From contig LSNK01000003.1 of the NCBI GenBank assembly GCA_003056085.1, positions 2,744 through 66,743 of the forward strand: a DNA stretch of 64,000 nt. Reading direction: 5' to 3'. The position numbers and the translations under genes are program-made. The notes below the pieces were generated by a model. It made no database searches, was not told the origin of the DNA, and saw nothing but the letters and a program-made list of their open reading frames with translations. Below, piece after piece: positions 1 through 57,807 of this stretch (positions are counted from its first letter, which is position 1; every line of letters starts with the position of its first letter). Source of the DNA: Parcubacteria group bacterium M6-OD1-1. GTDB taxonomy: Bacteria > Patescibacteriota > Minisyncoccia > GWC2-36-17 > M10-OD1-4.

Positions 1-3000
1 GCAGAAGTATTTGTTGTTGTGTCTCCACTGTCTACTATTGATGTGTCTGTGTTTGCATCTGCTTCGGCATCAGTTGTTATGTTTGTGGACTCATCATCGG
101 TCGTTGTTGTACTTGTGTCCGATTCATCAGTTGTTGTCGTATCTGCCGCAGAAGCATCGTCGGTTGCAGAAGTGTCGGTTGTTGTTGTGTCTCCGCTATC
201 TGCTGTTGTGTCTGTACTTGTATCTGTACTTGTATCTGCCCCACTATTTACTGATGTATCCGTTCCACTTTCTGTTGTTTCGTCTACTCCACTGTTGTTT
301 AAATCTGTCGCCTCATTTTCGGCTTCTGTTGTTGTTCCTGTCACATCTTCATCAGGACTTAAAAATCCTATTGCAGAAGCTTCCAAAATAGACTTGAGCT
401 GGTCTTTTGTAATACAGAGATCATCTATACAAAGCTTCTTTGTTTTTACTTGGTCAACCTCTATTTGTTTTGCTGTTATCTTTCCAAGCTCATCTATGCC
501 CCAAGCGCCTGAAGCGCTAGCAAGCGCTTTAATGTTTTTAATTTCTTTATTATTTAAATTAAGCGAGTACTGCCCGATGTATGCCGTTTCCCCTTGGTCT
601 GTGTTTATCATCCAAGGATTTGCTGTATTTTCTTCTGCGATATTTTCTGAAATACTGCTATATTTGCTACTTCCTCCTACATTTGCAAACATCATTACTT
701 TTCCAATTTCAGGACTATCATAATTTTCCAAAGCAATACCAAGAACCTTTCCTGTAGAAAATTCTGAACTCAAAGCCACAGCAACTCCGGAAATACTTGA
801 AGCCGTAAGTGTATCGCCTGTTTTTATTACGCCTGAAACTTTAACAGGAATTCTACCTTGTAAAGCAACCGGCAGACCATTTGTTGTTGAATATCCAAGA
901 GTAAATCCAGGTTTTGTTGAGATGACACCTACAGCATTTTTATATTTATCATTTGCCTTAACTATTCCGAAACTATCTTTAAAATCTATTGTTGTTGAAG
1001 CAGTTAAAATGTCTTCTGTTATTGCAACAACATCACCCGCCTCAAGCCCATCCTCAAAAGCTTGATATTTCTCTGCAAGGTCAGCCTGCTGAATAGTTAA
1101 ATTATCAGCATATATTGTTCCGCCTGTTGTACCGCATGCTCCTGCAACAGTAACGCACAAGGAACCTTGAACAGATAAAGTTGAGACAGGACTTGTTGTC
1201 GCAATACCAACTTTTCCACTATCAAGTACGGTAAATAAAGTACTTGAGGCGGAGTCTACAATTTCTAAAGCAGAAACTCCAGAAGTTCCATTCCCCCAAA
1301 CCGAAAGCTTAGCATAAGGTGAAGTTGTTCCGATGCCGATGTTCCCGCTTGAAAGTGTTGCACCTGCTCCATCAAGCCCAGTACCAAAAAGGAGATTACC
1401 TATGTTTAATGTGTTTGCGCTTGATGTACTTATAGCATCTATATTGTAACCAAGAATAATATTGTTTCCTCCTATTGTTAAGTTATCTCCTGCTTGGTAA
1501 CCCAGGAGAATATTGTTGTTTCCTGTTGCTAAAGCGGAACCTGCTTGGTAACCGAGAAATACATTATTTTGAAATGTTGTATTATTCCATCCCGCTCCAA
1601 GTCCCGCTCGGTAACCTACAGCTGTATTTCCATATCCTGTATTGTTGTAACGCATAGCATTTACACCTATCGCTGTATTTTCATACCCTGAAATATTGTA
1701 ATATTGAGCAAGTCTACCCACAGCTGTATTACTATATCCTGTAGTATTATTTCGAAGAGACTGACTACCAACGGATGCATTGTCAGCTCCTGTAGTGACA
1801 TAAAGGGATTCAAAACCAATAGCTGTATTATCAGATACTGAAACAGTATAACGAAGAGCTTTATAACCTATAGCTGTATTTTGATATCCTGTGGTGTTAT
1901 AGAAAAGAGAATCCTTACCAACAGCTATATTAGAATATCCTGTTGTATTTGAGTAAAGAGCTCTATCGCCATTAGCTGCATTTTCATATCCTGTTGTATT
2001 TGAGTAAAGAGCGGTTCTACCAATAGCTGTATTCATGTATCCTGTTGTATTTGCAGTAAGGGCTTGATAACCATTGGCTGTATTTCTATATCCTGTTGTA
2101 TTTGCAGCAAGAGCTTGATAACCATTGGCTGTATTTTCATATCCCACAGTATTTAAACTAAGCGCTTGATAACCAACCGCTGTGCTGCCGTCTGTTGAAG
2201 TCGCAACATTCAACGCTTGATAACCTAAAGCAGTGTTGTAAAACCCATCTGCAAGAAGCGCAGCTCCTGCTCCACTACCAACAAGTGTTGAGAAGTTTGT
2301 TGAAGAAGCGTAGAGTATTGTGTTCCCTGCTTGTTTGTAGCCTGAGTATTGGTCTGTGTTTATAAAGCCTGCTACAGAGAGTTTTGCGTATGGAGAGGTG
2401 GTACCTATTCCCAATCTGTTGTTTGTATCATCCCAGAAAAAGTTTGAGTTGTCTTGTGCTAAGTTTGAGCCGTTTGAGAAAACTACTGAACCTGCTGTTA
2501 GTGCTGTTGCAAAACTTTCTACATTTAAAGCAGATTGGTTTACAGATAGAACTCCTGATGCTGCTTGAAGTCCTGTTCCTGTTATGTCTGTTAAGTAATC
2601 AGAGCCAAGTGTGAATGCTGTTGTTGCGTTTAACATTGGAAGTGTTGAAGTTGCTGATGTTGAGGTTGCGGTAAAGTATTCTGAAACTGTTTCACCCACT
2701 ACTGAAAGCTTTGCGTAAGGGGAGGTTGTGCCGATGCCGATATTACCGGAATTTTTAACAATAAATAAATTACCACTGTCACCGACAGCAGCAGTAGAAG
2801 AAAGCATTAGTAAATCAGTTGCTCCACCATCCGCATTTATTTCCATACGAGCACCTGGGTTAGCCTCCCCAATGCCAAAATCCCCAGCAGTTGTTAAAAA
2901 AGCTACAGGGGTATTATTTGTTACAAAATTTAAATCAACATTTGAAAATGTTCCAAAATTCAGACCGGAAAGATTTACAAAGAAACCTCCTTCAATACCT

Positions 3001-6000
3001 ATTTTATTTTCAATTGTCATTTGTGCGTTATAAGAATTAGGATTTACATATAATCCATTATTAGAATTAGTCGGAGTCTGCCCACCGCCACCAATATGCA
3101 ATTCTTTAGTAGGACTCGCAGTTCCAATTCCAACATAACCCGTTGACCTATCATACACTATCCCACCACTACCAACATTAAACCCACCCGCGAAAGTTGA
3201 AGTTGCAGTTGTACTTGTCGCAGTAAAGTATTCTGCTACAGTTTCACCTACCACGGAAAGTTTTGCGTAAGGACTTGTTGTTCCGATGCCGACGTTGCCT
3301 CCACCTGTAGCAAACCATGCGCCGCCTGATGTGGTGAGTGAAGTTGATGAAGCGTATGTGAATGAAAGTCTGTCTGCGGATGGGTTGTATGTAAATGCTG
3401 ATTCCGATGCTAAAACGTCTGCCGCTGTTGTGTATAATACTGTGTTTGATCCTCCGAATGTTGAAAGTCCTGTGCCTCCATCTGCAACGGCGATATCTGT
3501 TCCGTTCCATACGCCTGAGGTTATTGTACCGAGTGATGTGATATTTCCCTGCACTGTTGTAGGAAGAGTTGAAGATATGGATGGAACTCCTGTTCCGCTG
3601 GTTATTAAAACTCCGTCATTTCCGGTTGTTATGGAAGCAAGTGCGTCTGCCGCTGTTGTGTAAAGCAGTGTGTTTGTTCCTCCAAATGTTGTGAGTCCTG
3701 TACCTCCTCTTGAAACCGCTAATGTTCCTGTTGTATCAGATATTGCGATTGCAAGAGAACTTGTTGCCGTATCAACCCAGCTTGTTCCGTTGTATGTTAT
3801 GACGTTACCGAATGCTACTCCTGTTGTGTCTACGTCTAAAAGGTCTGAAAGATATGAAGCTCCTACTCCTGCTCCTCCACTGTCTGATGAGCATACTAAA
3901 TATCCATTTGCATCTGTTGTTATCTTTCCTCCATTTCCAAGCCCTGAACAATCTATGGCTGCTATTTGAAGTCCTCCGCTTGAGAGTTTAACTCCATTTG
4001 CAAACGTTGAGGTTGCTGTTGTTGATGTTACATTAAGAAGGTTTGTTTGGATGCCTCCTGTGAATGTTGAAGTTGCAGATGTTGTTGCTGTATAGTTTGA
4101 GGCGACTACTTCTCCGACGACGGAGAGTTTGGCGTAGGGGGATGTTGTGCCGATGCCTGTATTGCCTGTGTTGTAATAAATATTAGATCCTGATGTTGTC
4201 CATTGTGAGAATAGGTTTGTTGAACCTTCCACTAAGTTGTCTGTGTTTATTGCAAGAGAACTTGTTGCCGTATCAACCCAGTCTGAACCATCCCATGTCA
4301 GTACATTGCCATATCCTACTCCTGATGTATTTACATCACTTAAATCTGAAATTGTGGCATTAAGTGAAATGGTGCTTCCTGTTAAAGAAAGTCCTGTTCC
4401 TGTCGCAAGGTCGGTATATGGTATCGCTATTGTTGAAGATGCTGTTGCTGTCCCTGAATTTAGATAAATAAATCCTGTTGAAGCGGAGAAGTCTTGACCT
4501 GTACCTCCTCTTGAAGCTGCAAGTGTCCCGGACCATTGTGATGTAAATGTATGGGTGGCTCCTGAACTTGTTATTGTTAGTCCTATATTTGTATCACTTG
4601 ATGTTGCAAAAGTTTGAGAACCTGACAAAAGACCATTTAAAGAAGTTATCCCATCTCCTATTCCAAGACATGTTCCATCGGGTTTCGTAAAGCACCCTGC
4701 TGAAATTGAGATTCCATTTGCAAACGTTGAGGTTGCTGTTGTTGATGTTACATTAAGAAGGTTTGTTTGGATGCCTCCTGTGAATGTTGAAGTTGCGGAT
4801 GTTGTTGCTGTATAGTTTGAAGCGACTACTTCTCCGACGACGGAGAGTTTGGCGTAGGGGGAGGTTGTGCTGATGCCGACGTTGCCTGTTGTACGATATA
4901 CATTGCCGCCAGAAGCACTCCAAGTCCCGACGGATCCGCCTATAAGTGAACCATTCCAATAAAGATCACCCGATGAGTCATTATAAAGTCTATTTGTTGT
5001 TACAGAGGGTGATGTGGCGCTAAAATATATCGGACCATTAACTGATAAAACATCTGTCGGCGATGAAGTTCCAATACCAATATTACCTGAACCATCAATA
5101 ACAAATCTGTCATTTGTTCCAAGTTTGGAAGAAGAGGCAATTTTAAATGAGCCTCCGTCAGAAAAATCAGAACCTATTGACCACTTATAATCCGAAGTAC
5201 TTGTAGAAGAAAAAGTAAGAACGGCATCTGCGCTTGATGTGGCGATGGTAAATGCCGTTGATGTTGCTTGTGTAAATATTGCCGTTGAAGAAGTTGCTGA
5301 ACCTATCGGGGTTGCGTCTATGCTCCCGCTGCCTATCGTTAAACCATCAACAACATAAGAATCGATTATACAATCTGTACACCCTCCTCTTGAAGCCACC
5401 GTACTAAGATCCGATGAATTGGTTATCGTCAAACCGCTTATGGAAATATCCGTACCAGCAGCCAAACTAAGCGCGCCTGTCTCGCCCTGCAAAGAACTAA
5501 CACCGGAAGAACTGACAAAAACAGAACGCCCGGACCCACCCGAAGATGAAATGACCGGATTTGAAGCAGTTCCTGTTATGGTTATATTCGAACCTGCAGT
5601 TATTTTGTTTATTATGTTAGATGCAAAAACTTTTCCTTCTCCCGCATTGATGTCAGTGTTATTGGTTGTTATTCCTCCGAAAGCCTCCATGACACCACGC
5701 GCGGTAATTTTGTTTCCAACATCAAGACTTCCAGTTATAGCCGCGCCTCCTCCTAAGCTAAGACTTCCTGATCCTGCAATATTCCTGCCAACCGTAATAT
5801 TTTTTGAAAAAACACTATTACCTGAAACATTAAGATCTAAGAGCGCAGAAAGATTTCTTGCTGTAAATGACCCTCTCACTGTTCCCGTCCCTTCAACCGT
5901 TATAGATCTCCCTATATTGGCGGAACCTCCGGTAATGAGTGATCCTTGAGAATTTACATTACCTGAAATTGAAAGACCACTGCCAATATCAACACCTGCG

Positions 6001-16524: not shown

Positions 16525-16575
16525 AATGGCCATGTGGCGGAGTGGTTACGCAGCGGTTTGCCCCGCTCAAAGGTC
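16525..16575 (+). other. Pseudo-tRNA: duplicated 5' portion of tRNA-Cys (acceptor 5' strand, D-arm, degenerate anticodon arm) lacking a T-arm
   Basis: 16532-16560 is identical (29/29) to 16581-16609 inside the tRNA-Cys gene. Confidence 0.7.
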
Positions 16576-16649
16576 TGGCGCTGTGGCGGAGTGGTTACGC
16601 AGCGGTTTGCAAAACCGTGCACACCGGTTCAATTCCGGTCAGCGCCTCC
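16576..16649 (+). tRNA. tRNA-Cys (GCA), CCA encoded
   Basis: Acceptor GGCGCTG/CAGCGCC, D-arm GCGGAGTGGTTACGC, anticodon loop TTGCAAA, T-arm ACCGGTTCAATTCCGGT, discriminator T + CCA. Confidence 0.85.
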
Positions 16650-16721: not shown

Positions 16722-16808
16722 TGCCCGGGTGGTGAAATTGGTATACACGAGAGACTTAAAATCTCTTGGTCGCAAGACCGTGCCGGTTCAAGTCCGGCTC
16801 CGGGCACC
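16722..16808 (+). tRNA. tRNA-Leu (TAA), class II with long variable arm, CCA encoded
   Basis: Acceptor GCCCGGG/TCCGGGC, anticodon loop CTTAAAA, variable arm TGGTCGCAAGACCGT, T-arm GCCGGTTCAAGTCCGGC, A + CCA. Confidence 0.85.
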
Positions 16809-16845
16809 ACAAAAAACTCCTGATTTTAATCAGGAGTTTTTTGAT
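16805..16845. repeat. 41-bp perfect direct repeat copy 1 (overlaps tRNA-Leu 3' end and a bidirectional terminator hairpin)
   Basis: accacaaaaaactcctgattttaatcaggagttttttgatt identical to 20054-20094. Confidence 0.9.
16811..16845. terminator. Bidirectional rho-independent terminator (ctcctgatt/aatcaggag stem flanked by A-run and T-run) serving tRNA-Leu (+) and nrdG (-)
   Basis: 9-bp stem, 4-nt loop, A6 upstream and T6 downstream. Confidence 0.7.
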
Positions 16846-16868
16846 TTTAAAAACAGCAAAATTAAAAA

Positions 16869-19645: not shown

Positions 19646-19963
19646 AAGACTTTTTTTGAATTAATTATTAAAAAAACTTGGCTAAAACGCCAAGCATCAA
19701 ACAATATCCAATATAGTCTTGAGACTTAAACGCGAGCCGAGAGCGGACTAATGCAGTCAAATTGTATGAGACCGGACTTTAACCGTTGCGCGACAGTGAG
19801 GGAATCACACCCTACTTCATCATACAAACCGCTATCTATAATTTTGTAAATACATAATAGCACAAAAAAATAATTTTCCAAAATCTTATATTTTTTGGTT
19901 TTTTGCCTTTTTTAAAAATTAAATTAAAATATTTCCAAATTTTTTCAATTAAATCCCTTCCTT

Positions 19964-20007
19964 TTAACGTAGCATATGGTGACGGTCGTCACCATATGCT
20001 ACGTTAA
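19964..20007. repeat. Perfect 20-bp-stem hairpin with GGTC tetraloop (ttaacgtagcatatggtgac-ggtc-gtcaccatatgctacgttaa)
   Basis: Base-by-base complementarity checked; followed by T-run; lies between nrdD start and the 3D-domain gene end. Confidence 0.85.
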
Positions 20008-20053: not shown

Positions 20054-20094
20054 ACCACAAAAAACTCCTGATTTTAATCAGGAGTTTTTTGATT
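20054..20094. repeat. 41-bp perfect direct repeat copy 2 (terminator hairpin downstream of 20116..20607)
   Basis: Identical to 16805-16845. Confidence 0.9.
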
Positions 20095-20115
20095 ATATTT
20101 TTTGAATTTTATTTC

Positions 20116-22765: not shown

Positions 22766-22924
22766 AAAAAGTATTAATCTACAATATATCACACAAAATC
22801 TCATTATTCAATACAAAATTCTGAATAACTCAACGCGTTGAGTTATTCAGAATTTTGTATATCTTTTTTGAAATACGAGAATAATAAGTATGGTGCGTTT
22901 ATTGTACCAAACTCGCACTTACTT

Positions 22925-34145: not shown

Positions 34146-34225
34146 TTGGTGCGCCCAAAAGGACTCGAACCTGGGACCGCCGAGATATATCAGTGATATA
34201 ATTCTTCATTTGCACAAAATGCAAA
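34146..34225 (-). other. tRNA-like 3' fragment. A T-arm-like atatctcggcggtcccaggttcgagtcc is followed by a ...tgggcgcacca 3' end. It is preceded by an 8-bp hairpin catttgca-ttttg-tgcaaatg and has no cognate 5' half.
   Basis: Shares atatctcggcggtccc.ggttc.agtcc with the adjacent intact tRNA(UAU). Confidence 0.5.
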
Positions 34226-34231
34226 TGCCCG

Positions 34232-34304
34232 TCCACCCTCCTGGACTTGAACCAGGGACCGCCGAGATATAAGCTCGGTGCTCTACCGACTGAGCTAAGG
34301 GTGG
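34232..34304 (-). tRNA. tRNA with anticodon UAU (tRNA-Ile2-like, decoding AUA); C1:G72, discriminator A, no CCA
   Basis: Reverse complement CCACCCTTAGCTCAGTCGGTAGAGCACCGAGCTTATATCTCGGCGGTCCCTGGTTCAAGTCCAGGAGGGTGGA; anticodon stem CCGAG/CTCGG, loop CTTATAT. Confidence 0.65.
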
Positions 34305-51177: not shown

Positions 51178-52668
51178 TTAGTCTAATCTGGGAAAAAGCG
51201 GCTCCGGTTTTTTAATGCTAAGAGGTTTTTCTGACCAATCTTTTTTGTCTTTTGAAATCCCCAAAGCGGAAAAAATTCTTTCCGAAGTATCCGGTAAAAA
51301 TGGCAAAAGAAGATATGCTGTGTAAGCAATACTTAAAATAAGATCTTTTGTAGTTTTTTTGAACTCTTCTTTGTCTTTTTTCGGCAACTCCCAAAGCTTA
51401 GACTCTTCTACCATTTTATCAGAAACATCAATTAATTTAAATATATTTTCCAAAGCAACATTTAAGTGAAAACTTTCAATGTTTTTTTCATATTCTGATA
51501 TCGTATTTCTTATACTTTCAGAAATATCATTTTCAGAAATTTTAATTTCTCCTAAAATATCTTTATTTTTTTCCGCTATCGCAGAAACTCTTAAAACTAA
51601 ATTTCCCAATTTATTTGATAAGTCGCCATATCTCTCTTTAAATCTCTCATCAGAAAAATCACCGTCTTGATAAGAGGGTATCTCCCTTAAAAGATAGTAT
51701 CTGACTGCTTCTTTTCCATATTTTTCTATTAAATCAAATGGACTCACAACATTACCCAAAGACTTGGACATTTTGACGCCTTCATGAGTTATAAAACCAT
51801 GAACATATATATTTTTTGGAAGAGGAAGCTCAAGCGACAAAAGCATAGCGGGCCAAATCATCGCATGAAATCTTAAAATATCCTTCCCCACCAAATGCAC
51901 ATCTGCCGGCCAAAACTTTTCATACAATTTACCGGTTGGACCACCGAGCCCGGAAATATAATTTGTTAAAGCATCTGCCCAAACATATATTTTTTGAGTA
52001 TCATCTGAAGGAACGTTTATCCCCCACCCAACACTTTCTTTTGGTCGAGAAAAAGAGACATCAGAAACTTTTTCACTTTCAAAAAGATTAAGCATTTCTT
52101 TTTTTCTATGCTCCGGAACTATCTTTATTTCGTCTTTTTGTATGAGCTCTTTAACTCTTTCTGCATATTTTGAAAATTTAAAAAAATAATTTTCTTCTGA
52201 CACCTGCTCGGGAGCTTTTTTATGAATAATACACTCTCCATCTTTGAGATCCTTTTCATTTATAAAAGCTTCGCAACCCACACAATAAAAAGCTTCGTAA
52301 GTATTTTTATAAATATCCTCCTTCTCCACAAATTTTTTCCAAAAATCAAAAACAATAGGATAATGCATTTTTTCATCTGAAGTTCTTATGAAAGAATCGT
52401 TGGAAATGCCAAGCTCTTTCGCTAAGCTTTTAAATTTTTCTGAAATCTCGTCTACAAATTCTTTTGGAGTTTTATTTTCCAATTCAGCCTTTTGTTGTAT
52501 TTTTTTTCCATGTTCATCCATTCCTGTTAAGAAAAAAACGTCGTCACCTTTTTGACGATGATATCTTGCAAGGACATCGGCCTGCAAAAGTTCAAGAGCA
52601 TAACCAATATGCGGTTCTGCATTTGCATAAGCAATTGATGTTGTAATATAAAATTTATTTTTTGACAT
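51178..52668 (-). CDS. metG: Methionyl-tRNA synthetase (short form without C-terminal tRNA-binding domain)
   Basis: ITTSIAYANAEPHIGYALE, Zn knuckle CVGCEAF...C, KMSKSLGN; 496 aa. Confidence 0.9.
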   Translation of the reverse strand: MSKNKFYITTSIAYANAEPHIGYALELLQADVLARYHRQKGDDVFFLTGMDEHGKKIQQKAELENKTPKEFVDEISEKFKSLAKELGISNDSFIRTSDEKMHYPIVFDFWKKFVEKEDIYKNTYEAFYCVGCEAFINEKDLKDGECIIHKKAPEQVSEENYFFKFSKYAERVKELIQKDEIKIVPEHRKKEMLNLFESEKVSDVSFSRPKESVGWGINVPSDDTQKIYVWADALTNYISGLGGPTGKLYEKFWPADVHLVGKDILRFHAMIWPAMLLSLELPLPKNIYVHGFITHEGVKMSKSLGNVVSPFDLIEKYGKEAVRYYLLREIPSYQDGDFSDERFKERYGDLSNKLGNLVLRVSAIAEKNKDILGEIKISENDISESIRNTISEYEKNIESFHLNVALENIFKLIDVSDKMVEESKLWELPKKDKEEFKKTTKDLILSIAYTAYLLLPFLPDTSERIFSALGISKDKKDWSEKPLSIKKPEPLFPRLD

Positions 52669-52720
52669 AGCTTTATTTTACACGCAAAAAGAACTTAAGT
52701 AAATTAAAAATAAATGTTTT

Positions 52721-52770
52721 GAAAATCCTGCGATTTATTGAACGACCGTTCAATAAATCGCAGGATTTTC
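52721..52770. repeat. Perfect 23-bp-stem hairpin with GACC/GGTC tetraloop (ttttgaaaatcctgcgatttattgaac-gacc-gttcaataaatcgcaggattttc)
   Basis: Complementarity checked pairwise; sits between metG start and the stop of 52771..53391. Confidence 0.85.
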
Positions 52771-53391
52771 TTATTTAGTTAAAAGCTTCAGGCTTCCTGT
52801 TTTTGTTATTTCAAATATTTCAACAAAATTAATAATTTTCAAATCTTTTAAGTCACTTAAAAAGTCTCTCGGTACAACTACTTTTCCCATCCAAACACTT
52901 TTTTGAACTATTTTAAAATCCATTTTTACAAGAGCATGCCTTAACCATGCTCTCTTATGTCTATCTCTTTCAGGGATATCAAATATTATAATCGTAACTC
53001 TACTACTCTTTTTATTTTTATAATCAATAATAGGAAAATCCCCCATTTTTTTCTGTAAATTTTTTATTAAACTTATTTTTTTAATTCCCTTCTTAGTAAT
53101 TTTAAAAGTAAAACTATGATTACTTTTACGTTTTTCTAATAATCCGCACTTTTCTAATCTGTTTACCATAGAATGAAATCTATCATTTATTTTTTTCTTG
53201 TTATTTTTTGATAATTTCTGATATTCTATATTGAATCTTTTTCTAAATTGTCCATTCTCCGCTTTACGCTCAATCTCATTTAAAGAAGCACCGTAACTAG
53301 AAGTTATAAAAACATCTAAAAGATCCGCTGTATCCAGTGCAGCATCTTTTAATATTTCTAAGAATTTTAAAGTTTTATCTCCTCTTTTCAT
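52771..53391 (-). CDS. Two-domain protein with an N-terminal winged-HTH-like domain and a C-terminal Cas2/VapD-like (PaaX-C-like) domain
   Basis: N-terminal LNEIERKAENGQFRK...LEKCGLLEKRKSNHSFTFKITKKG (wHTH-like). C-terminal RVTIIIFDIPERDRHKRAWLRHALVKMDFKIVQKSVWMGKV fits the Cas2-like pattern (beta1 with Asp, basic helix, G.RVQ.SVW). No CRISPR array or other cas genes lie nearby. Confidence 0.45.
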   Translation of the reverse strand: MKRGDKTLKFLEILKDAALDTADLLDVFITSSYGASLNEIERKAENGQFRKRFNIEYQKLSKNNKKKINDRFHSMVNRLEKCGLLEKRKSNHSFTFKITKKGIKKISLIKNLQKKMGDFPIIDYKNKKSSRVTIIIFDIPERDRHKRAWLRHALVKMDFKIVQKSVWMGKVVVPRDFLSDLKDLKIINFVEIFEITKTGSLKLLTK

Positions 53392-53443
53392 AATTTATGT
53401 TAGGCGACTTTTCTGACGGTCGTTCGATAAATCGTAAATTTAA

Positions 53444-54118
53444 TTATACTTTATTTATAACTACAACAAACTCACCAAGAGTTTTATCATCTTCTAACTT
53501 TTCTAAAACCTCTTTTGCTGTACCCCTGTATGTCGTTTCAAATATTTTAGTAAGCTCACGGCAGAGAACTATTTCTCTTTCTCCTGAAACTTCAGAAAGC
53601 TCCAGAAGCGCCTTCTTTATCCTGTGCTTTGACTCATAAAAAACTATTGTGTCTTTTTCTTTTGAAATATTTCTGAAAAATGTCTGTCTTCCTTTTTTAT
53701 GCGGAGGAAATCCTAAAAACTTAAACTTATCTGCACAAAACCCGGAAATACTCAGAGCGGCCGTTACAGCACTTGGTCCGGGAATAGAAACTATATTTAT
53801 TTCTCCGCCAAAATTTTCAACGATTTTTAAAATTAGAAAACTTCCGGGATCAGATATTGTCGGCGTTCCAGCATCAGACACCAAGGCTAATTCTTTCCCT
53901 TCTTTTAGTAAATCTAAAATTTGATCTATCTTACCAATTTTGCTGTGCTTGTGATAACTTAAAAGAGGTTTTTTTATATCATACGCCATTAAAAGTTTTG
54001 TGGTAACTCTCGTATCTTCACATAAAATAACATCAACGTTACTTAGGGTGTCCAACGCTCTTTGTGTTATGTCTTTTAAATTGCCTATTGGTGTAGCCAC
54101 CACATAAAAAACTGCCAT
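53444..54118 (-). CDS. rsmI: 16S rRNA (cytidine1402-2'-O)-methyltransferase
   Basis: VVATPIGNLKDITQRALDTLSNVDVILCEDTRVTTKLL tetrapyrrole-methylase fold; 224 aa. Confidence 0.85.
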   Translation of the reverse strand: MAVFYVVATPIGNLKDITQRALDTLSNVDVILCEDTRVTTKLLMAYDIKKPLLSYHKHSKIGKIDQILDLLKEGKELALVSDAGTPTISDPGSFLILKIVENFGGEINIVSIPGPSAVTAALSISGFCADKFKFLGFPPHKKGRQTFFRNISKEKDTIVFYESKHRIKKALLELSEVSGEREIVLCRELTKIFETTYRGTAKEVLEKLEDDKTLGEFVVVINKV

Positions 54119-56179: not shown

Positions 56180-57757
56180 ATGAAAACAATACTGGAAAAT
56201 TTAATATTGGAAGCCTCATCCCAGAAAAAACTGAGCGAACTTAGCTTTAGCAAGCTAAAAAGAAAACATATGCAGAACCTCGGCATTCACGGGCTTCCTT
56301 CTAATATGAAACTTTTACCAGTTTACCACAGATTAGTAAAGTCAAAAAAAATAAAAGCTAATAAAATTTTAGAATACATTATAAAAAAAAGGAAGATAAG
56401 AACCCTTTCCGGTATTGCTTCTATTACAATTTTAACAAAAAATTGGGGATGTCCTGGAAAATGCAGATTTTGTCCAACAGAAAAAGGTATGCCAAAAAGC
56501 TATCTTTCCAATGAACCTGCTGTTATGCGCGCTATTTTAAATGAGTTTGACCCCTACAAGCAAGTTCAAATGAGATTAGACTCCCTCAAAAATCAAGGAC
56601 ACTCAATAAATAAAATTGAAGTTATAGTTATAGGCGGAACTTGGTCTGCCATTCCGCATGATTATCAAGAGTGGTATATAAAAAGAATATATGAAGCGTT
56701 AAATAAAAAAGAATCAAAAACTCTTGAGATTGCAATGAAAAAAAATGAGACTTCAGAACAAAAATTAGTCGGCTTAACTTTAGAAACGAGACCGGACTGG
56801 ATAACAGAAGAAGAACTAAAAATAATGCGAAAATATGGATGTACGAGAGTAGAACTTGGAGTTCAAAGTATTTATGATGATGTTTTGGACGCATCACAAA
56901 GAGGACACAAAATAGATGCAACAATAAAAGCAACAAGAATGCTTAAAGACTCAGGATTTAAAATCAACTATCATATGATGCCAAATCTCCCGAAGTCAAC
57001 CGTCAAAAAAGATATAAAAATGCTCAAAGATATATTTTTAGATCAAAATTTTCAACCCGATCTTCTGAAAATTTATCCTTGTATGGTTCTTAAAAATACA
57101 AAGCTTTATCAAGATTTTAAAGATGGAAAATTCAAGCCTTACACAGACAAACAATTAATAAAAATAATGAAAGAAGCAAAAGAAAATGTACCTCAATATT
57201 GCAGAATCGTAAGAATCATACGTGATATTCCGGCAACGAGCATAGCCGGAGGAAGCCATACCTCAAATTTGAGAGAATTTGTTCATAAAGAAATGAAAGG
57301 AGAAGGAAAAAAATGCAAATGCATAAGATGCCGAGAAATAATGGGCGATGAATTTGATTTAAAAAATGTAAAAATGATAAGAAGAGATTATGATGCATCC
57401 AATGGAAAAGAAATATTTTTATCTTTTGAAGATACAAAAAATGATAAAATTATTTCTCTTTTAAGATTACGCATCCCTTCTCAGAAAAAAAATGAGATAT
57501 TTCCTGTTTTGTCTAATGCTTCAATTATAAGAGAAATTCATACATACGGAAATGTTGTGCCTGTTTCAAAAACAGATAAAAAAGCTCAACAGCATAAAGG
57601 ATTAGGTAAAAAATTATTAAAAGAAGCGGAAAAAATCACCAAAAAAGAATTTAATTTAAACAAAATAACTGTTATCGCAGCTGTTGGAGTACGAGATTAC
57701 TATAAAAAATTTGGATATAAAACAAAAGACACTTACATGTACAAAACATTAAAATAA
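56180..57757 (+). CDS. elp3: Elp3-family radical-SAM/GNAT protein (bacterial homologue of the tRNA wobble-uridine carboxymethyl-transferase Elongator subunit 3)
   Basis: GCPGKCRFCPTEKGMPKSYLSNEPAVMRA (Elp3 radical-SAM cysteine motif); C-terminal GNAT QQHKGLGKKLLKEAEKITKKEFNLNKITVIAAVGVRDYYKKFGY; 525 aa. Confidence 0.75.
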   Translation: MKTILENLILEASSQKKLSELSFSKLKRKHMQNLGIHGLPSNMKLLPVYHRLVKSKKIKANKILEYIIKKRKIRTLSGIASITILTKNWGCPGKCRFCPTEKGMPKSYLSNEPAVMRAILNEFDPYKQVQMRLDSLKNQGHSINKIEVIVIGGTWSAIPHDYQEWYIKRIYEALNKKESKTLEIAMKKNETSEQKLVGLTLETRPDWITEEELKIMRKYGCTRVELGVQSIYDDVLDASQRGHKIDATIKATRMLKDSGFKINYHMMPNLPKSTVKKDIKMLKDIFLDQNFQPDLLKIYPCMVLKNTKLYQDFKDGKFKPYTDKQLIKIMKEAKENVPQYCRIVRIIRDIPATSIAGGSHTSNLREFVHKEMKGEGKKCKCIRCREIMGDEFDLKNVKMIRRDYDASNGKEIFLSFEDTKNDKIISLLRLRIPSQKKNEIFPVLSNASIIREIHTYGNVVPVSKTDKKAQQHKGLGKKLLKEAEKITKKEFNLNKITVIAAVGVRDYYKKFGYKTKDTYMYKTLK

Positions 57758-57807
57758 AATGACAACTTTGGGGACGGTCGTCCCCAAAGTTGTCATTTTA
57801 TTTTAAT
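57748..57807. repeat. Perfect 28-bp-stem hairpin with GGTC tetraloop overlapping the elp3 stop (attaaaataaaatgacaactttggggac-ggtc-gtccccaaagttgtcattttattttaat)
   Basis: Pairwise check of 28 consecutive complementary positions; bidirectional terminator position between convergent elp3 and murD. Confidence 0.85.

What the first reader, a model, noticed from the sequence alone, without database searches (positions are those of the whole stretch)
52721..53440. Stand-alone wHTH + Cas2/VapD-like protein flanked by GGTC-loop palindromes
The 206-aa protein (52771..53391) combines an N-terminal winged-helix-like region with a C-terminal segment RVTIIIFDIPERDRHKRAWLRHALVKMDFKIVQKSVWMGKV. This reproduces the Cas2 beta1-Asp / basic helix / G-RVQ-SVW pattern, similar to the PaaX C-terminal domain. 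There is no CRISPR array or other cas gene in 64 kb. The gene is bounded on both sides by members of the GGTC-loop hairpin family. One is a perfect 23-bp stem and the other a decayed copy sharing the ataaatcg arm, so the unit resembles a small cassette. It could be a PaaX-like regulator or a toxin-like nuclease.
Basis: partly seen in the sequence, partly recalled or inferred. Interest (0 to 1): 0.55.

Follow-up and report, generated by a model that had tools for sequence, protein, structure and literature searches.

The report
Cas2-fold DNA binder flanked by palindromes
A small protein of candidate-phyla-radiation bacteria that databases often call 'Cas2' appears instead to be a sequence-specific DNA-binding regulator, and its gene sits between two copies of its own roughly 40-bp palindromic binding site in most related loci examined.

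Summary
A 206-aa ORF lies at 52771..53391 on the minus strand. It has an N-terminal PadR-like winged helix and a C-terminal Cas2-fold domain that matches Pfam PaaX_M. A perfect palindrome (52721-52770) lies directly after the gene and a decayed copy (53404-53434) directly before it.

The architecture is a family trait, not a local curiosity. The family is large: 749 clusters at 50% identity score E<=1e-30. All named sources are Patescibacteria MAGs. Of 86 related loci, 72 carry an upstream palindrome and 69 a downstream one. The centre is nearly always CG-RY-CG. The arms match within a locus (80% identity) but not between loci (36%).

The upstream copy overlaps the gene's own promoter. Residue 148 in helix 1 of the Cas2-fold domain covaries with base -5 of the site (Asp with C, small residues with G, Arg/Lys with C at -4). 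Residue 74 in the winged-helix recognition helix covaries with base -13.

I conclude that this is a dimeric, PaaX-like autoregulator that reads its flanking operators. It is not a CRISPR Cas2, and I found no evidence that it is a toxin. I saw no sign of recent mobility, although cassette inversions and solo palindromes exist. Nuclease activity and any target beyond its own flanks remain untested.

The parts
52771..53391 (-). Gene for the 206-aa wHTH + Cas2-fold protein (stop codon 52771-52773)
   Evidence: ORF list. Pfam PaaX_M E=2.7e-10, above its cutoff. More than 120 full-length homologs. Identical to a protein in GCA_003056185.1.
53041..53391 (-). N-terminal PadR-like winged-helix domain (about residues 1-117). 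The recognition helix is about residues 62-81 and the wing about 85-98.
   Evidence: AF2 model with pLDDT 85. Foldseek hits to PadR, LmrR and other wHTH regulators and to PaaX. Residue 74 covaries with site base -13, z=8.5.
52774..53010 (-). C-terminal Cas2-fold (PaaX_M) domain, residues 128-206. Invariant residues are F137, D138, E141, R147, W149, R151, Q163, S165, V166, W167, G169 and G199.
   Evidence: Domain model with pLDDT 91.5. Nearly all of the top 38 PDB fold hits are Cas2 (36 of 38, plus a Cas3 and a Cas2/3 chain); PaaX 8a39 gives TMq 0.61. Residue 148 covaries with site bases -5 and -4.
53404..53435 (.). Upstream cognate site (decayed palindrome). In gene orientation it reads ACGATTTATCGAACG-AC-CGTCAGAAAAGTCGC. 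The centre is 28 nt from the ATG. It is the putative operator.
   Evidence: The asymmetric core GAACGACCGTCAGAAAAGT is shared with the orthologs L005, L097 and L098. The centre-to-ATG distance falls in the family mode of 28-32 nt.
53397..53427 (-). Putative weak promoter of the gene: TCGAAC (53422-53427), 19-nt spacer, TAACAT (53397-53402), then 5 nt to the ATG, implying a leaderless or near-leaderless mRNA. This is inferred.
   Evidence: Read from the sequence by analogy with the ortholog L005, which has TTGAAC-N17-TATAAT-7 nt-ATG, and with the family geometry. The consensus scan did not call it.
52721..52770 (.). Downstream cognate site: a perfect palindrome GAAAATCCTGCGATTTATTGAACG-AC-CGTTCAATAAATCGCAGGATTTTC. 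It abuts the stop codon and also looks like a bidirectional intrinsic terminator, with an A-tract, a stem and a T-tract.
   Evidence: Terminator-like call. A downstream copy is present in 69 of 86 family loci.
57748..57807 (.). Solo palindrome with the same centre (GACGGTCGTC) but different 29-nt arms, lying between convergent genes. Its relation to the protein is unresolved.
   Evidence: Positional homologs exist in L005 and L095, with diverged arms that are still mirror-perfect.
19964..20007 (.). Solo palindrome with the same centre (GACGGTCGTC) and 21-nt arms, upstream of the nrdD leader. Its relation to the protein is unresolved.

Best explanation
The gene encodes a 'mini-PaaX': a PadR-like winged helix fused to a Cas2-fold domain, without the PaaX C-terminal domain.

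Proposed mechanism:
- The protein most likely binds double-stranded DNA as a two-fold symmetric dimer. The partner is a roughly 40-bp palindrome of consensus TTACT-N4-TATTTGACG-RY-CGTCAAATA-N4-AGTAA.
- The Cas2-fold domain sits over the conserved CG-RY-CG centre. Its helix 1 (K146, R147, x148, W149, R151) reads bases -4 and -5.
- The two winged helices read the variable outer arms around position -13.
- One copy of the site overlaps the gene's own promoter. The -35 element lies just left of the centre, the -10 element lies at the right arm end, and the mRNA is often leaderless. Binding there would repress the gene's own transcription.
- A second copy with the same sequence lies just after the stop codon. 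There it can act as a second operator (looping or roadblock) and often also as a bidirectional terminator.

The result is an insulated, self-contained unit of site, gene and site. This unit is vertically inherited, and some genomes carry two or three diverged paralogs, each with its own arms.

Shown here: the domain folds, the conserved two-site architecture, the promoter overlap, the residue-base covariation and the stable synteny.

Inferred: dimerisation, actual binding, repression, and any role for the downstream copy. Any target beyond the protein's own flanks is unknown. So is any catalytic role of the invariant Asp138 and Glu141.
For: Domains:
- PaaX_M E=2.7e-10; CRISPR_Cas2 at its cutoff.
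- AF2 models with pLDDT 85 and 91.5.
- Foldseek gives PaaX 8a39, many Cas2 structures, and PadR-like wHTH proteins.

Architecture:
- In 548 kb of family loci there are 106 strong palindromes within 130 nt of the gene, and 95 of them have a CGRYCG centre. Elsewhere, 10 of 58 do.
- 72 of 86 loci have an upstream site and 69 of 86 a downstream site.
- Upstream and downstream arms are 80% identical within a locus and 36% between loci.

Promoter overlap:
- L005 has TTGAAC-N17-TATAAT-7 nt-ATG.
- The centre-to-ATG distance has a mode of 28-32 nt.
- A TAnnnT hexamer lies at +15 to +22 in 40 of 72 upstream sites and 18 of 69 downstream sites.
- The most common distance from the -10 element to the ATG is 5-9 nt.

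Direct readout:
- Asp148 pairs with C at -5 in 15 of 21 loci (p=5e-8).
- Ala/Gly/Val/Gln/Phe148 pairs with G at -5 in 17 of 20 loci (p=1e-8).
- Arg/Lys148 pairs with C at -4 in 3 of 3 loci.
- Nearest-neighbour pairs co-switch residue and base (p=0.001).
- Residue 74 on the recognition helix covaries with base -13, z=8.5.

Stability:
- The rsmI-cassette-metG synteny holds in five relatives.
- Identical proteins sit in one context across 24+24 contigs.

In the P0113 locus, conventional terminators stand next to both palindromes, so the palindromes are more than terminators.
Against: - No binding or expression data exist; everything here is computational.
- A regulator whose only recognisable cognate sites flank its own gene has no obvious output. 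There is no further cognate copy in the 64-kb window. Only one extra copy appears in about 470 kb of flanks, in L072.
- Perfect arms of 20-29 nt are far longer than a dimeric operator needs. This suggests a hairpin or cruciform role, or a DNA-level correction process.
- Asp138 and Glu141 are invariant, although E. coli PaaX lacks that Asp (sequence recalled from memory). That is compatible with catalysis.
- In this window the upstream copy is decayed and its promoter is weak, so the gene may be co-transcribed with rsmI.
- The covariation could equally reflect reading of a hairpin stem.
- About 15-20% of loci lack one detectable site.
Confidence: 0.6

Rival explanations
1. A selfish or domesticated hairpin-flanked element, laid out like an insertion sequence or a REP/RAYT unit. 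The protein binds both ends, and the Cas2-fold domain (Asp138/Glu141) nicks or cuts at the CG-RY-CG centre. This would promote excision, inversion or copying of the palindrome. The solo palindromes would be footprints or dispersed copies.
For: - The layout is end site containing the gene's promoter, then gene, then matching end site, as in many insertion sequences.
- In the window's ortholog group the two sites are asymmetric and arranged as true inverted repeats.
- The cassette is inverted relative to its neighbours between L006 and L087/L088, and in L008 and L033 relative to xer.
- A third cognate copy lies in frame inside a UvrC-like ORF in L072.
- Solo palindromes with the same centre but other arms occur in the window and come and go between relatives.
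- An acidic pair is invariant at the Cas2 catalytic position.
Against: - Identical proteins always sit in the same context.
- Synteny holds down to 60% protein identity.
- Paralogs within a genome are old: they show 30-45% identity to the window protein and have different arms.
- There are no multi-copy identical elements and no target-site duplications.
- Across the family the sites show no preference for inverted over direct orientation (8 versus 11, with 18 symmetric).
- Inversions can arise from ordinary recombination between flanking palindromes.
- There is no HUH, Tyr or DDE motif.
Confidence: 0.15
2. An RNA- or hairpin-binding protein. The palindromes act as stem-loops in transcripts (terminators), and the Cas2-fold domain, an RNase in some Cas2 and VapD proteins, binds or processes the CG-RY-CG loop. 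This would control termination or mRNA stability.
For: - Downstream copies are often extended by A- and T-tracts like bidirectional terminators.
- The solo palindromes sit at gene ends.
- The arms stay mirror-perfect while diverging between species.
- Cas2-family proteins have reported RNase activity (established knowledge).
Against: - The upstream copy overlaps the -35 and -10 elements, so in many loci the transcription start lies downstream of it and it is not in the gene's mRNA.
- The stems are strictly Watson-Crick, with no sign that G-U pairs are tolerated in the perfect copies.
- Conventional terminators coexist beside the palindromes.
- The closest homologs of both domains are DNA-binding regulators (PadR, PaaX).
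- A two-fold symmetric site fits a dimer on duplex DNA.
Confidence: 0.1
3. A genuine CRISPR adaptation Cas2, or a VapD-type toxin, left stand-alone after loss of its partners.
For: Pfam CRISPR_Cas2 scores 23.9 bits against a cutoff of 23.8. PADLOC Cas2 models hit weakly. NCBI names many members Cas2. The fold matches Cas2.
Against: - TIGR01573 scores below its cutoff.
- The protein is a fusion with a winged-helix domain, which stand-alone Cas2 lacks.
- There is no CRISPR array in the window.
- The gene calls printed for about 30 related loci list no Cas family besides this protein.
- The family keeps its own flanking sites, and its helix 1 covaries with DNA bases.
- No antitoxin-like partner gene is present.
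- The gene is stably vertically inherited.
Confidence: 0.03

Closest known systems
PaaX (phenylacetyl-CoA-responsive repressor, PDB 8a39; Pfam PaaX_M PF20803)
   Same: Same domain order: an N-terminal winged helix followed by a Cas2-like domain. It is the best whole-protein fold hit and gives the best TM-score for the C-terminal domain. The Pfam PaaX_M match is above its cutoff. From established knowledge, PaaX is a repressor that acts on palindromic operators.
   Different: The protein lacks the whole PaaX C-terminal domain and is 206 aa, against about 305-316 aa for PaaX. There is no paa gene context. It keeps the Cas2-type FDIPE motif with an invariant Asp. Its sites are roughly 40-bp palindromes with a CG-RY-CG core that flank the gene on both sides. 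Here the Cas2-like domain appears to read bases rather than only to dimerise.
Cas2 (CRISPR adaptation subunit; PF09827, TIGR01573)
   Same: Ferredoxin-like beta-alpha-beta-beta-alpha-beta fold. The sequence motifs (I/V)xFD(I/V) and QxSVW align with Cas2, and the Asp falls on the Cas2 catalytic position.
   Different: It is fused to a DNA-binding domain. No cas1 appeared in the printed gene calls of related loci, and no CRISPR array was found in the window. It scores below the TIGR01573 cutoff. Its helix 1 covaries with a specific DNA sequence. It is auto-annotated as Cas2 in many MAGs, probably wrongly.
PadR-family regulators (e.g. LmrR, BCE3449)
   Same: The N-terminal domain matches the PadR-like wHTH fold. 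Weak Pfam PadR hits occur in orthologs. JGI names some members PadR. Small dimeric autoregulators are typical of this family.
   Different: In PadR proteins the C-terminal dimerisation element is a helix, not a Cas2-fold domain, and their operators are much shorter.
REP/RAYT units and insertion-sequence ends
   Same: A single gene is bracketed by matching palindromic or inverted sites that its product is expected to bind. A promoter is embedded in one end. Paralogs each have their own site variant.
   Different: There is no HUH/Tyr or DDE catalytic motif. The sites are not dispersed in high copy number. There is no evidence of recent transposition.

Membership tests
PaaX family | Central Cas2-like domain (PaaX_M, PF20803) | tested here: met
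   40.6 bits against a cutoff of 24, residues 133-198. All 120 listed homologs carry PF20803.
PaaX family | C-terminal helical PaaX_C domain | tested here: not met
   The protein ends at residue 206, right after the Cas2-like domain. There is no PaaX_C hit at E<=10. The model shows no further domain.
PaaX family | PaaX-type N-terminal winged helix | tested here: inconclusive
   No Pfam PaaX N-terminal hit, only weak generic wHTH hits. The fold search aligns 126 columns with PaaX 8a39 and also matches PadR-like proteins.
PaaX family | Control of phenylacetate (paa) genes and response to phenylacetyl-CoA | not testable with these tools
   No paa genes were seen among the neighbours. Ligand binding cannot be assessed, and the domain that would bind the ligand is absent.
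Cas2 (CRISPR adaptation) | Cas2 fold with a conserved Asp at the end of strand beta-1 | tested here: met
   Nearly all of the top 38 PDB fold hits for the domain are Cas2. D138 is invariant and aligns with the Asp of 3exc, 2ivy and 7f84.
Cas2 (CRISPR adaptation) | Passes curated family thresholds | tested here: inconclusive
   PF09827 scores 23.9 against 23.8, which is borderline and covers only residues 133-172. TIGR01573 scores 21.0 against 24.5 and fails.
Cas2 (CRISPR adaptation) | Encoded next to cas1 and a CRISPR array | tested here: not met
   No array in the 64-kb window. The gene calls printed for about 30 related loci list no Cas family other than this protein. cas1 was not searched for with a dedicated profile across the whole window.
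VapD-type toxin | Small stand-alone toxin paired with an adjacent antitoxin gene | tested here: not met
   The protein is a fusion with a wHTH domain. The neighbours are rsmI and metG, with no small partner ORF.
PadR family | PadR-type wHTH domain | tested here: inconclusive
   Foldseek hits to PadR-like structures have probability about 1.0 but E values of 0.03-0.1. PF03551 hits are only weak, and only in orthologs.
Insertion sequence / REP-RAYT element | Several near-identical copies, variable location, and a transposase catalytic motif | tested here: not met
   There is one copy per type. Identical proteins sit in one context in 24+24 contigs. No invariant His or Tyr.

The most novel reading that the evidence does not exclude
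The Cas2 fold is used here as a base-specific DNA-reading module and possibly a cutting module. It is locked to roughly 40-bp palindromic repeats that bracket its own gene. If the invariant Asp138 and Glu141 are catalytic, the site-gene-site unit would be a new kind of hairpin-flanked, self-targeting element, with the solo palindromes as its footprints. Independently of catalysis, a Cas2 relative that recognises palindromic repeats would offer a concrete model for how Cas2 and CRISPR-type repeats first became associated.
Probability: 0.12. Interest if true: 0.85.

Novelty: new variant of a known kind. Interest (0 to 1): 0.6.

Why it matters
- Many 'CRISPR-associated endonuclease Cas2' annotations in CRISPR-poor Patescibacteria are probably wrong. 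They would inflate counts of CRISPR components in these lineages.
- The residue-base covariation suggests a previously undescribed use of the Cas2 fold: sequence-specific DNA recognition with a simple code. Residue 148 is Asp with C, a small residue with G, and Arg/Lys with C at -4. This is directly testable by mutagenesis.
- The tightly conserved site-gene-site module is present as two or three paralogs in some of these tiny genomes (0.6-1 Mb). It has no evident output other than itself. That raises a real question about what such units do in organisms with very few regulators.
- The palindromes' mirror-perfect divergence gives a natural system for studying how long palindromes are maintained.

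Tried and rejected
- Second family member or pseudogene in the window: tblastn with 34 family members found none.
- CRISPR array: none found.
- Known RNA family at the hairpins: Rfam returned only tRNAs and one AdoCbl-II riboswitch elsewhere.
- Phage and defence libraries: PHROGs gave nothing. PADLOC gave only weak Cas2 hits.
- The palindromes as Xer/dif sites: a conserved XerC/D-like gene lies next to the cassette in 15-17 loci. However, the arms next to the core differ completely between those loci while Xer is 63-93% identical, and the window has no Xer gene. I treat this as synteny only.
- Both hairpins lying inside the gene's own mRNA (a 5' plus 3' panhandle): rejected for typical loci, because the promoter elements lie inside the upstream site.
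- Presence/absence polymorphism at the rsmI-metG junction: the metagenome scan with RsmI returned only relatives at 41-49% identity, without the cassette or palindromes. These are too distant to be informative.
- Population variants of two family members were identical in the flanks, so they gave no microevolutionary signal.
- Literature searches for PaaX + Cas2, for Cas2 in CPR, and for palindromes in Patescibacteria found nothing relevant.

Full report
**1. The observation**

The window is low in G+C (33.5%) and matches assembly GCA_003056185.1 exactly. The named relatives carrying this protein family are Patescibacteria (CPR) MAGs of the Wolfe-, Jorgensen-, Colwell- and Giovannonibacteria type.

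An ATG-initiated ORF of 206 aa lies at 52771..53391 on the minus strand, between rsmI (53444..54118) and metG (51178..52668).

Directly after its stop codon lies a perfect palindrome at 52721-52770. It has 24-nt arms and a 2-nt centre, and the loop reads GGTC on the sense strand. Twelve nucleotides before its start codon lies a decayed copy at 53404-53434, which shares the arm ACGATTTATCGAACG.

Only four perfect palindromes with arms of 20 nt or more exist in the 64 kb. Three of them share the centre ACG-RY-CGT. The description is therefore correct. Two details need adjusting: the strand is minus, and the PaaX domain involved is the central one.

**2. The protein**

- Pfam gives PaaX_M ("PaaX central Cas2-like domain") at E=2.7e-10 for residues 133-198. 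It gives CRISPR_Cas2 exactly at its cutoff. TIGR01573 falls below its cutoff.
- An AlphaFold2 model (pLDDT 85) shows a helical winged-helix domain (residues 1-117) and a beta-alpha-beta-beta-alpha-beta domain (residues 128-203).
- Foldseek on the whole model finds PaaX (8a39) first, then Cas2 structures and PadR-like regulators.
- The C-terminal domain modelled alone (pLDDT 91.5) hits Cas2 in nearly all of the top 38 PDB matches. PaaX gives the best TM-score, 0.61.
- A profile of the domain aligns its FDIPE motif with the catalytic-Asp motif of Cas2 proteins 3exc, 2ivy and 7f84.

The family is large. It has 749 clusters at 50% identity with E<=1e-30 and 2016 with E<=1e-10. Nearly all members are 180-210 aa. 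Many are auto-named "Cas2", and a few "PadR".

The invariant residues are F137, D138, E141, R147, W149, R151, Q163, S165, V166, W167, G169 and G199. The N-terminal half is much more variable.

**3. The flanking palindromes are a family trait**

In the ortholog L005 (61% identity, same rsmI-gene-metG synteny) the gene is again flanked by two copies of a related site. The core GAACGACCGTCAGAAAAGT is shared with the window, but the outer arms differ.

I then fetched 80 loci from species-representative genomes and scanned them.

- In 548 kb there are 169 strong palindromes. Of these, 106 lie within 130 nt of the family gene, and 95 of those have a CG-RY-CG centre. Elsewhere, only 10 of 58 do.
- With a more sensitive test, 72 of 86 loci have an upstream site and 69 of 86 a downstream site.
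- CGATCG is the most common centre. CGGTCG/CGACCG and CGGCCG also occur, and rare variants are TGATCA and CAATTG.
- The consensus is ttTaCT.ac.TATTT.ACGA|TCGT.AAATA.gt.AGtAAa.
- Arms are 80% identical between the two copies of one locus and 36% between loci.
- Several genomes carry two or three diverged paralogs, each with its own arms. Examples are L045/L049/L052 on one 52-kb contig, L043/L058 in CP011209, and L005/L006.

**4. What the sites do**

The upstream copy coincides with a sigma-70-type promoter.

- In L005 the hexamer left of the centre is TTGAAC. Seventeen nucleotides later comes TATAAT, at the end of the right arm, and the ATG follows after 7 nt.
- Across loci, the centre-to-ATG distance peaks at 28-32 nt. 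The window's value is 28.
- A TAnnnT hexamer sits at +15 to +22 in 40 of 72 upstream copies but only 18 of 69 downstream copies.
- The -10 element is most often 5-9 nt from the ATG, which implies leaderless mRNAs.

A protein bound to the site would therefore occlude its own promoter.

Downstream copies are often extended by A- and T-tracts and look like bidirectional terminators. In the P0113 locus, however, ordinary terminators stand beside both palindromes, so the palindromes are more than terminators.

**5. Evidence that the protein reads the site**

Over 63 loci, two residue-base pairs stand far above background.

*Residue 148.* It lies between invariant R147 and W149 in helix 1 of the Cas2-fold domain, and it tracks base -5.
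- Asp goes with C in 15 of 21 loci (p=5e-8).
- Ala/Gly/Val/Gln/Phe goes with G in 17 of 20 loci (p=1e-8).
- Thr goes with T.
- Arg/Lys goes with C at -4 in 3 of 3 loci.

The pairing recurs within clades. Examples are L042 (Thr, GTACG) versus L043 (Val, TGACG), L047 and L054 (Gly, TGACG) versus L079 (Asp, TTACG), and the window and L005 (Ala, GAACG) versus L006, L087 and L088 (Asp, GCGCG). Nearest-neighbour pairs co-switch residue and base with p=0.001.

*Residue 74.* It lies on the winged-helix recognition helix and tracks base -13 (z=8.5).

The pattern fits the conservation of the two domains. The conserved domain pairs with the conserved centre, and the variable domain pairs with the variable arms. 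A two-fold symmetric site also fits a dimer, as known for PaaX and Cas2 (established knowledge). These are inferences from covariation, not binding data.

**6. Mobility**

Some features recall an insertion sequence or a REP/RAYT unit.
- A promoter lies in one end site, and the other end carries a matching site.
- In the window's ortholog group the sites are asymmetric and arranged as true inverted repeats.
- The cassette is inverted relative to its neighbours in several lineages.
- A third cognate copy lies in frame inside a UvrC-like ORF in L072.
- Solo palindromes with the same centre but other arms appear and disappear between relatives, and stay mirror-perfect as they diverge.

Other findings argue against current mobility.
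- Identical proteins are always found in one genomic context (24+24 contigs).
- Synteny holds down to 60% protein identity.
- Paralogs are ancient.
- No transposase-type motif is conserved.

I therefore rate an active mobile or nuclease element as a minority possibility. Inversions and solo copies can arise from ordinary recombination between flanking palindromes. Mirror-perfect arms can be kept by template-switch correction of quasi-palindromes, a known mechanism that was not tested here.

**7. Verdict**

The protein is not a CRISPR Cas2. There is no array in the window. The printed gene calls of related loci list no Cas family besides this protein. The protein fails TIGR01573 and is fused to a DNA-binding domain. 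Nothing found here supports a toxin.

The tightly conserved site-gene-site module and the apparent base-reading role of a Cas2-fold helix do not appear in the searchable literature.

Three things remain unexplained: what the module controls besides itself, whether Asp138 and Glu141 are catalytic or merely cap helix 1, and what the solo palindromes are.

Noticed in passing
window 16806-16849 and 20054-20097: A 44-nt direct repeat (98% identical) comprises the 3' end of tRNA-Leu(taa) plus a terminator hairpin. It brackets a 3.2-kb segment carrying nrdG, nrdD, a riboswitch and one solo palindrome. This looks like an att-type duplication left by an integrated island, but no integrase lies inside.
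   Followed up: partly
window 19759-19837 (-): An AdoCbl-II (cobalamin) riboswitch lies in the leader of the anaerobic ribonucleotide reductase gene nrdD. It scores 40.3 bits against a gathering score of 36.5.
   Followed up: no
window 19964-20007, 57748-57807, 22811-22860: Three solo perfect palindromes with arms of 21-29 nt. Two share the centre GACGGTCGTC with the cassette sites, and the third has ACGCGT. Their arms are unrelated to the cassette's. The 57748 copy overlaps the last codons of the radical-SAM/acetyltransferase gene. It has positional homologs with diverged arms in L005 (one copy) and L095 (two copies), and none in L097.
   Followed up: partly
L008, L010-L012, L016-L018, L021, L024, L026-L028, L031, L033, L064 (upstream of the cassette); also L042 and L084: A highly conserved XerC/D-like tyrosine recombinase gene (63-93% identity between genomes) lies immediately next to the cassette in 15 loci, and in two of them the cassette is inverted relative to it. 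Two further loci carry the gene nearby or cut off at the locus end. The window has no such gene. I judged this to be synteny rather than function, because the arms next to the core are not conserved.
   Followed up: partly
L072 2785-2830, 3410-3455, 4386-4431: Three copies of one cognate palindrome. The third lies in frame inside a GIY-YIG/UvrC-N-like ORF (3486..4625) and is followed by a 21-nt stretch resembling the cassette gene's start. The low-GC segment (about 2700-4500) is flanked by regions of about 50% GC.
   Followed up: partly
L066 1-142: A perfect palindrome with 71-nt arms and a GCGATCGC centre lies directly upstream of the family gene, at the very end of the contig. It could be real or an assembly fold-back artefact.
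   Followed up: no
window 16527-16561 / 16576-16610 and 34161-34189 / 34243-34271: Partial duplicates of tRNA-Cys and tRNA-Ile sequence lie next to the intact genes (93-94% identical). They may be scars of integration events.
   Followed up: no
window 1300-4900: A dense set of coding-like repeats: a 51-nt periodic array at about 1440-2175, and 99-200-nt repeats at 2665-4904. They are typical of a large repetitive surface protein, and this is not a CRISPR array.
   Followed up: no
window 52675-52703 (-): The metG promoter appears to be TTTACT-N17-TAAAAT, ending 6 nt before the ATG. Several family genes also look leaderless.
   Followed up: no
L095 4550-4828, L097 4358-4750: In close relatives an extra small gene (unannotated in L095/L096, DUF488 in L097/L098) sits between rsmI and the cassette. 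The junction therefore accepts insertions while the cassette and its two sites stay intact.
   Followed up: no
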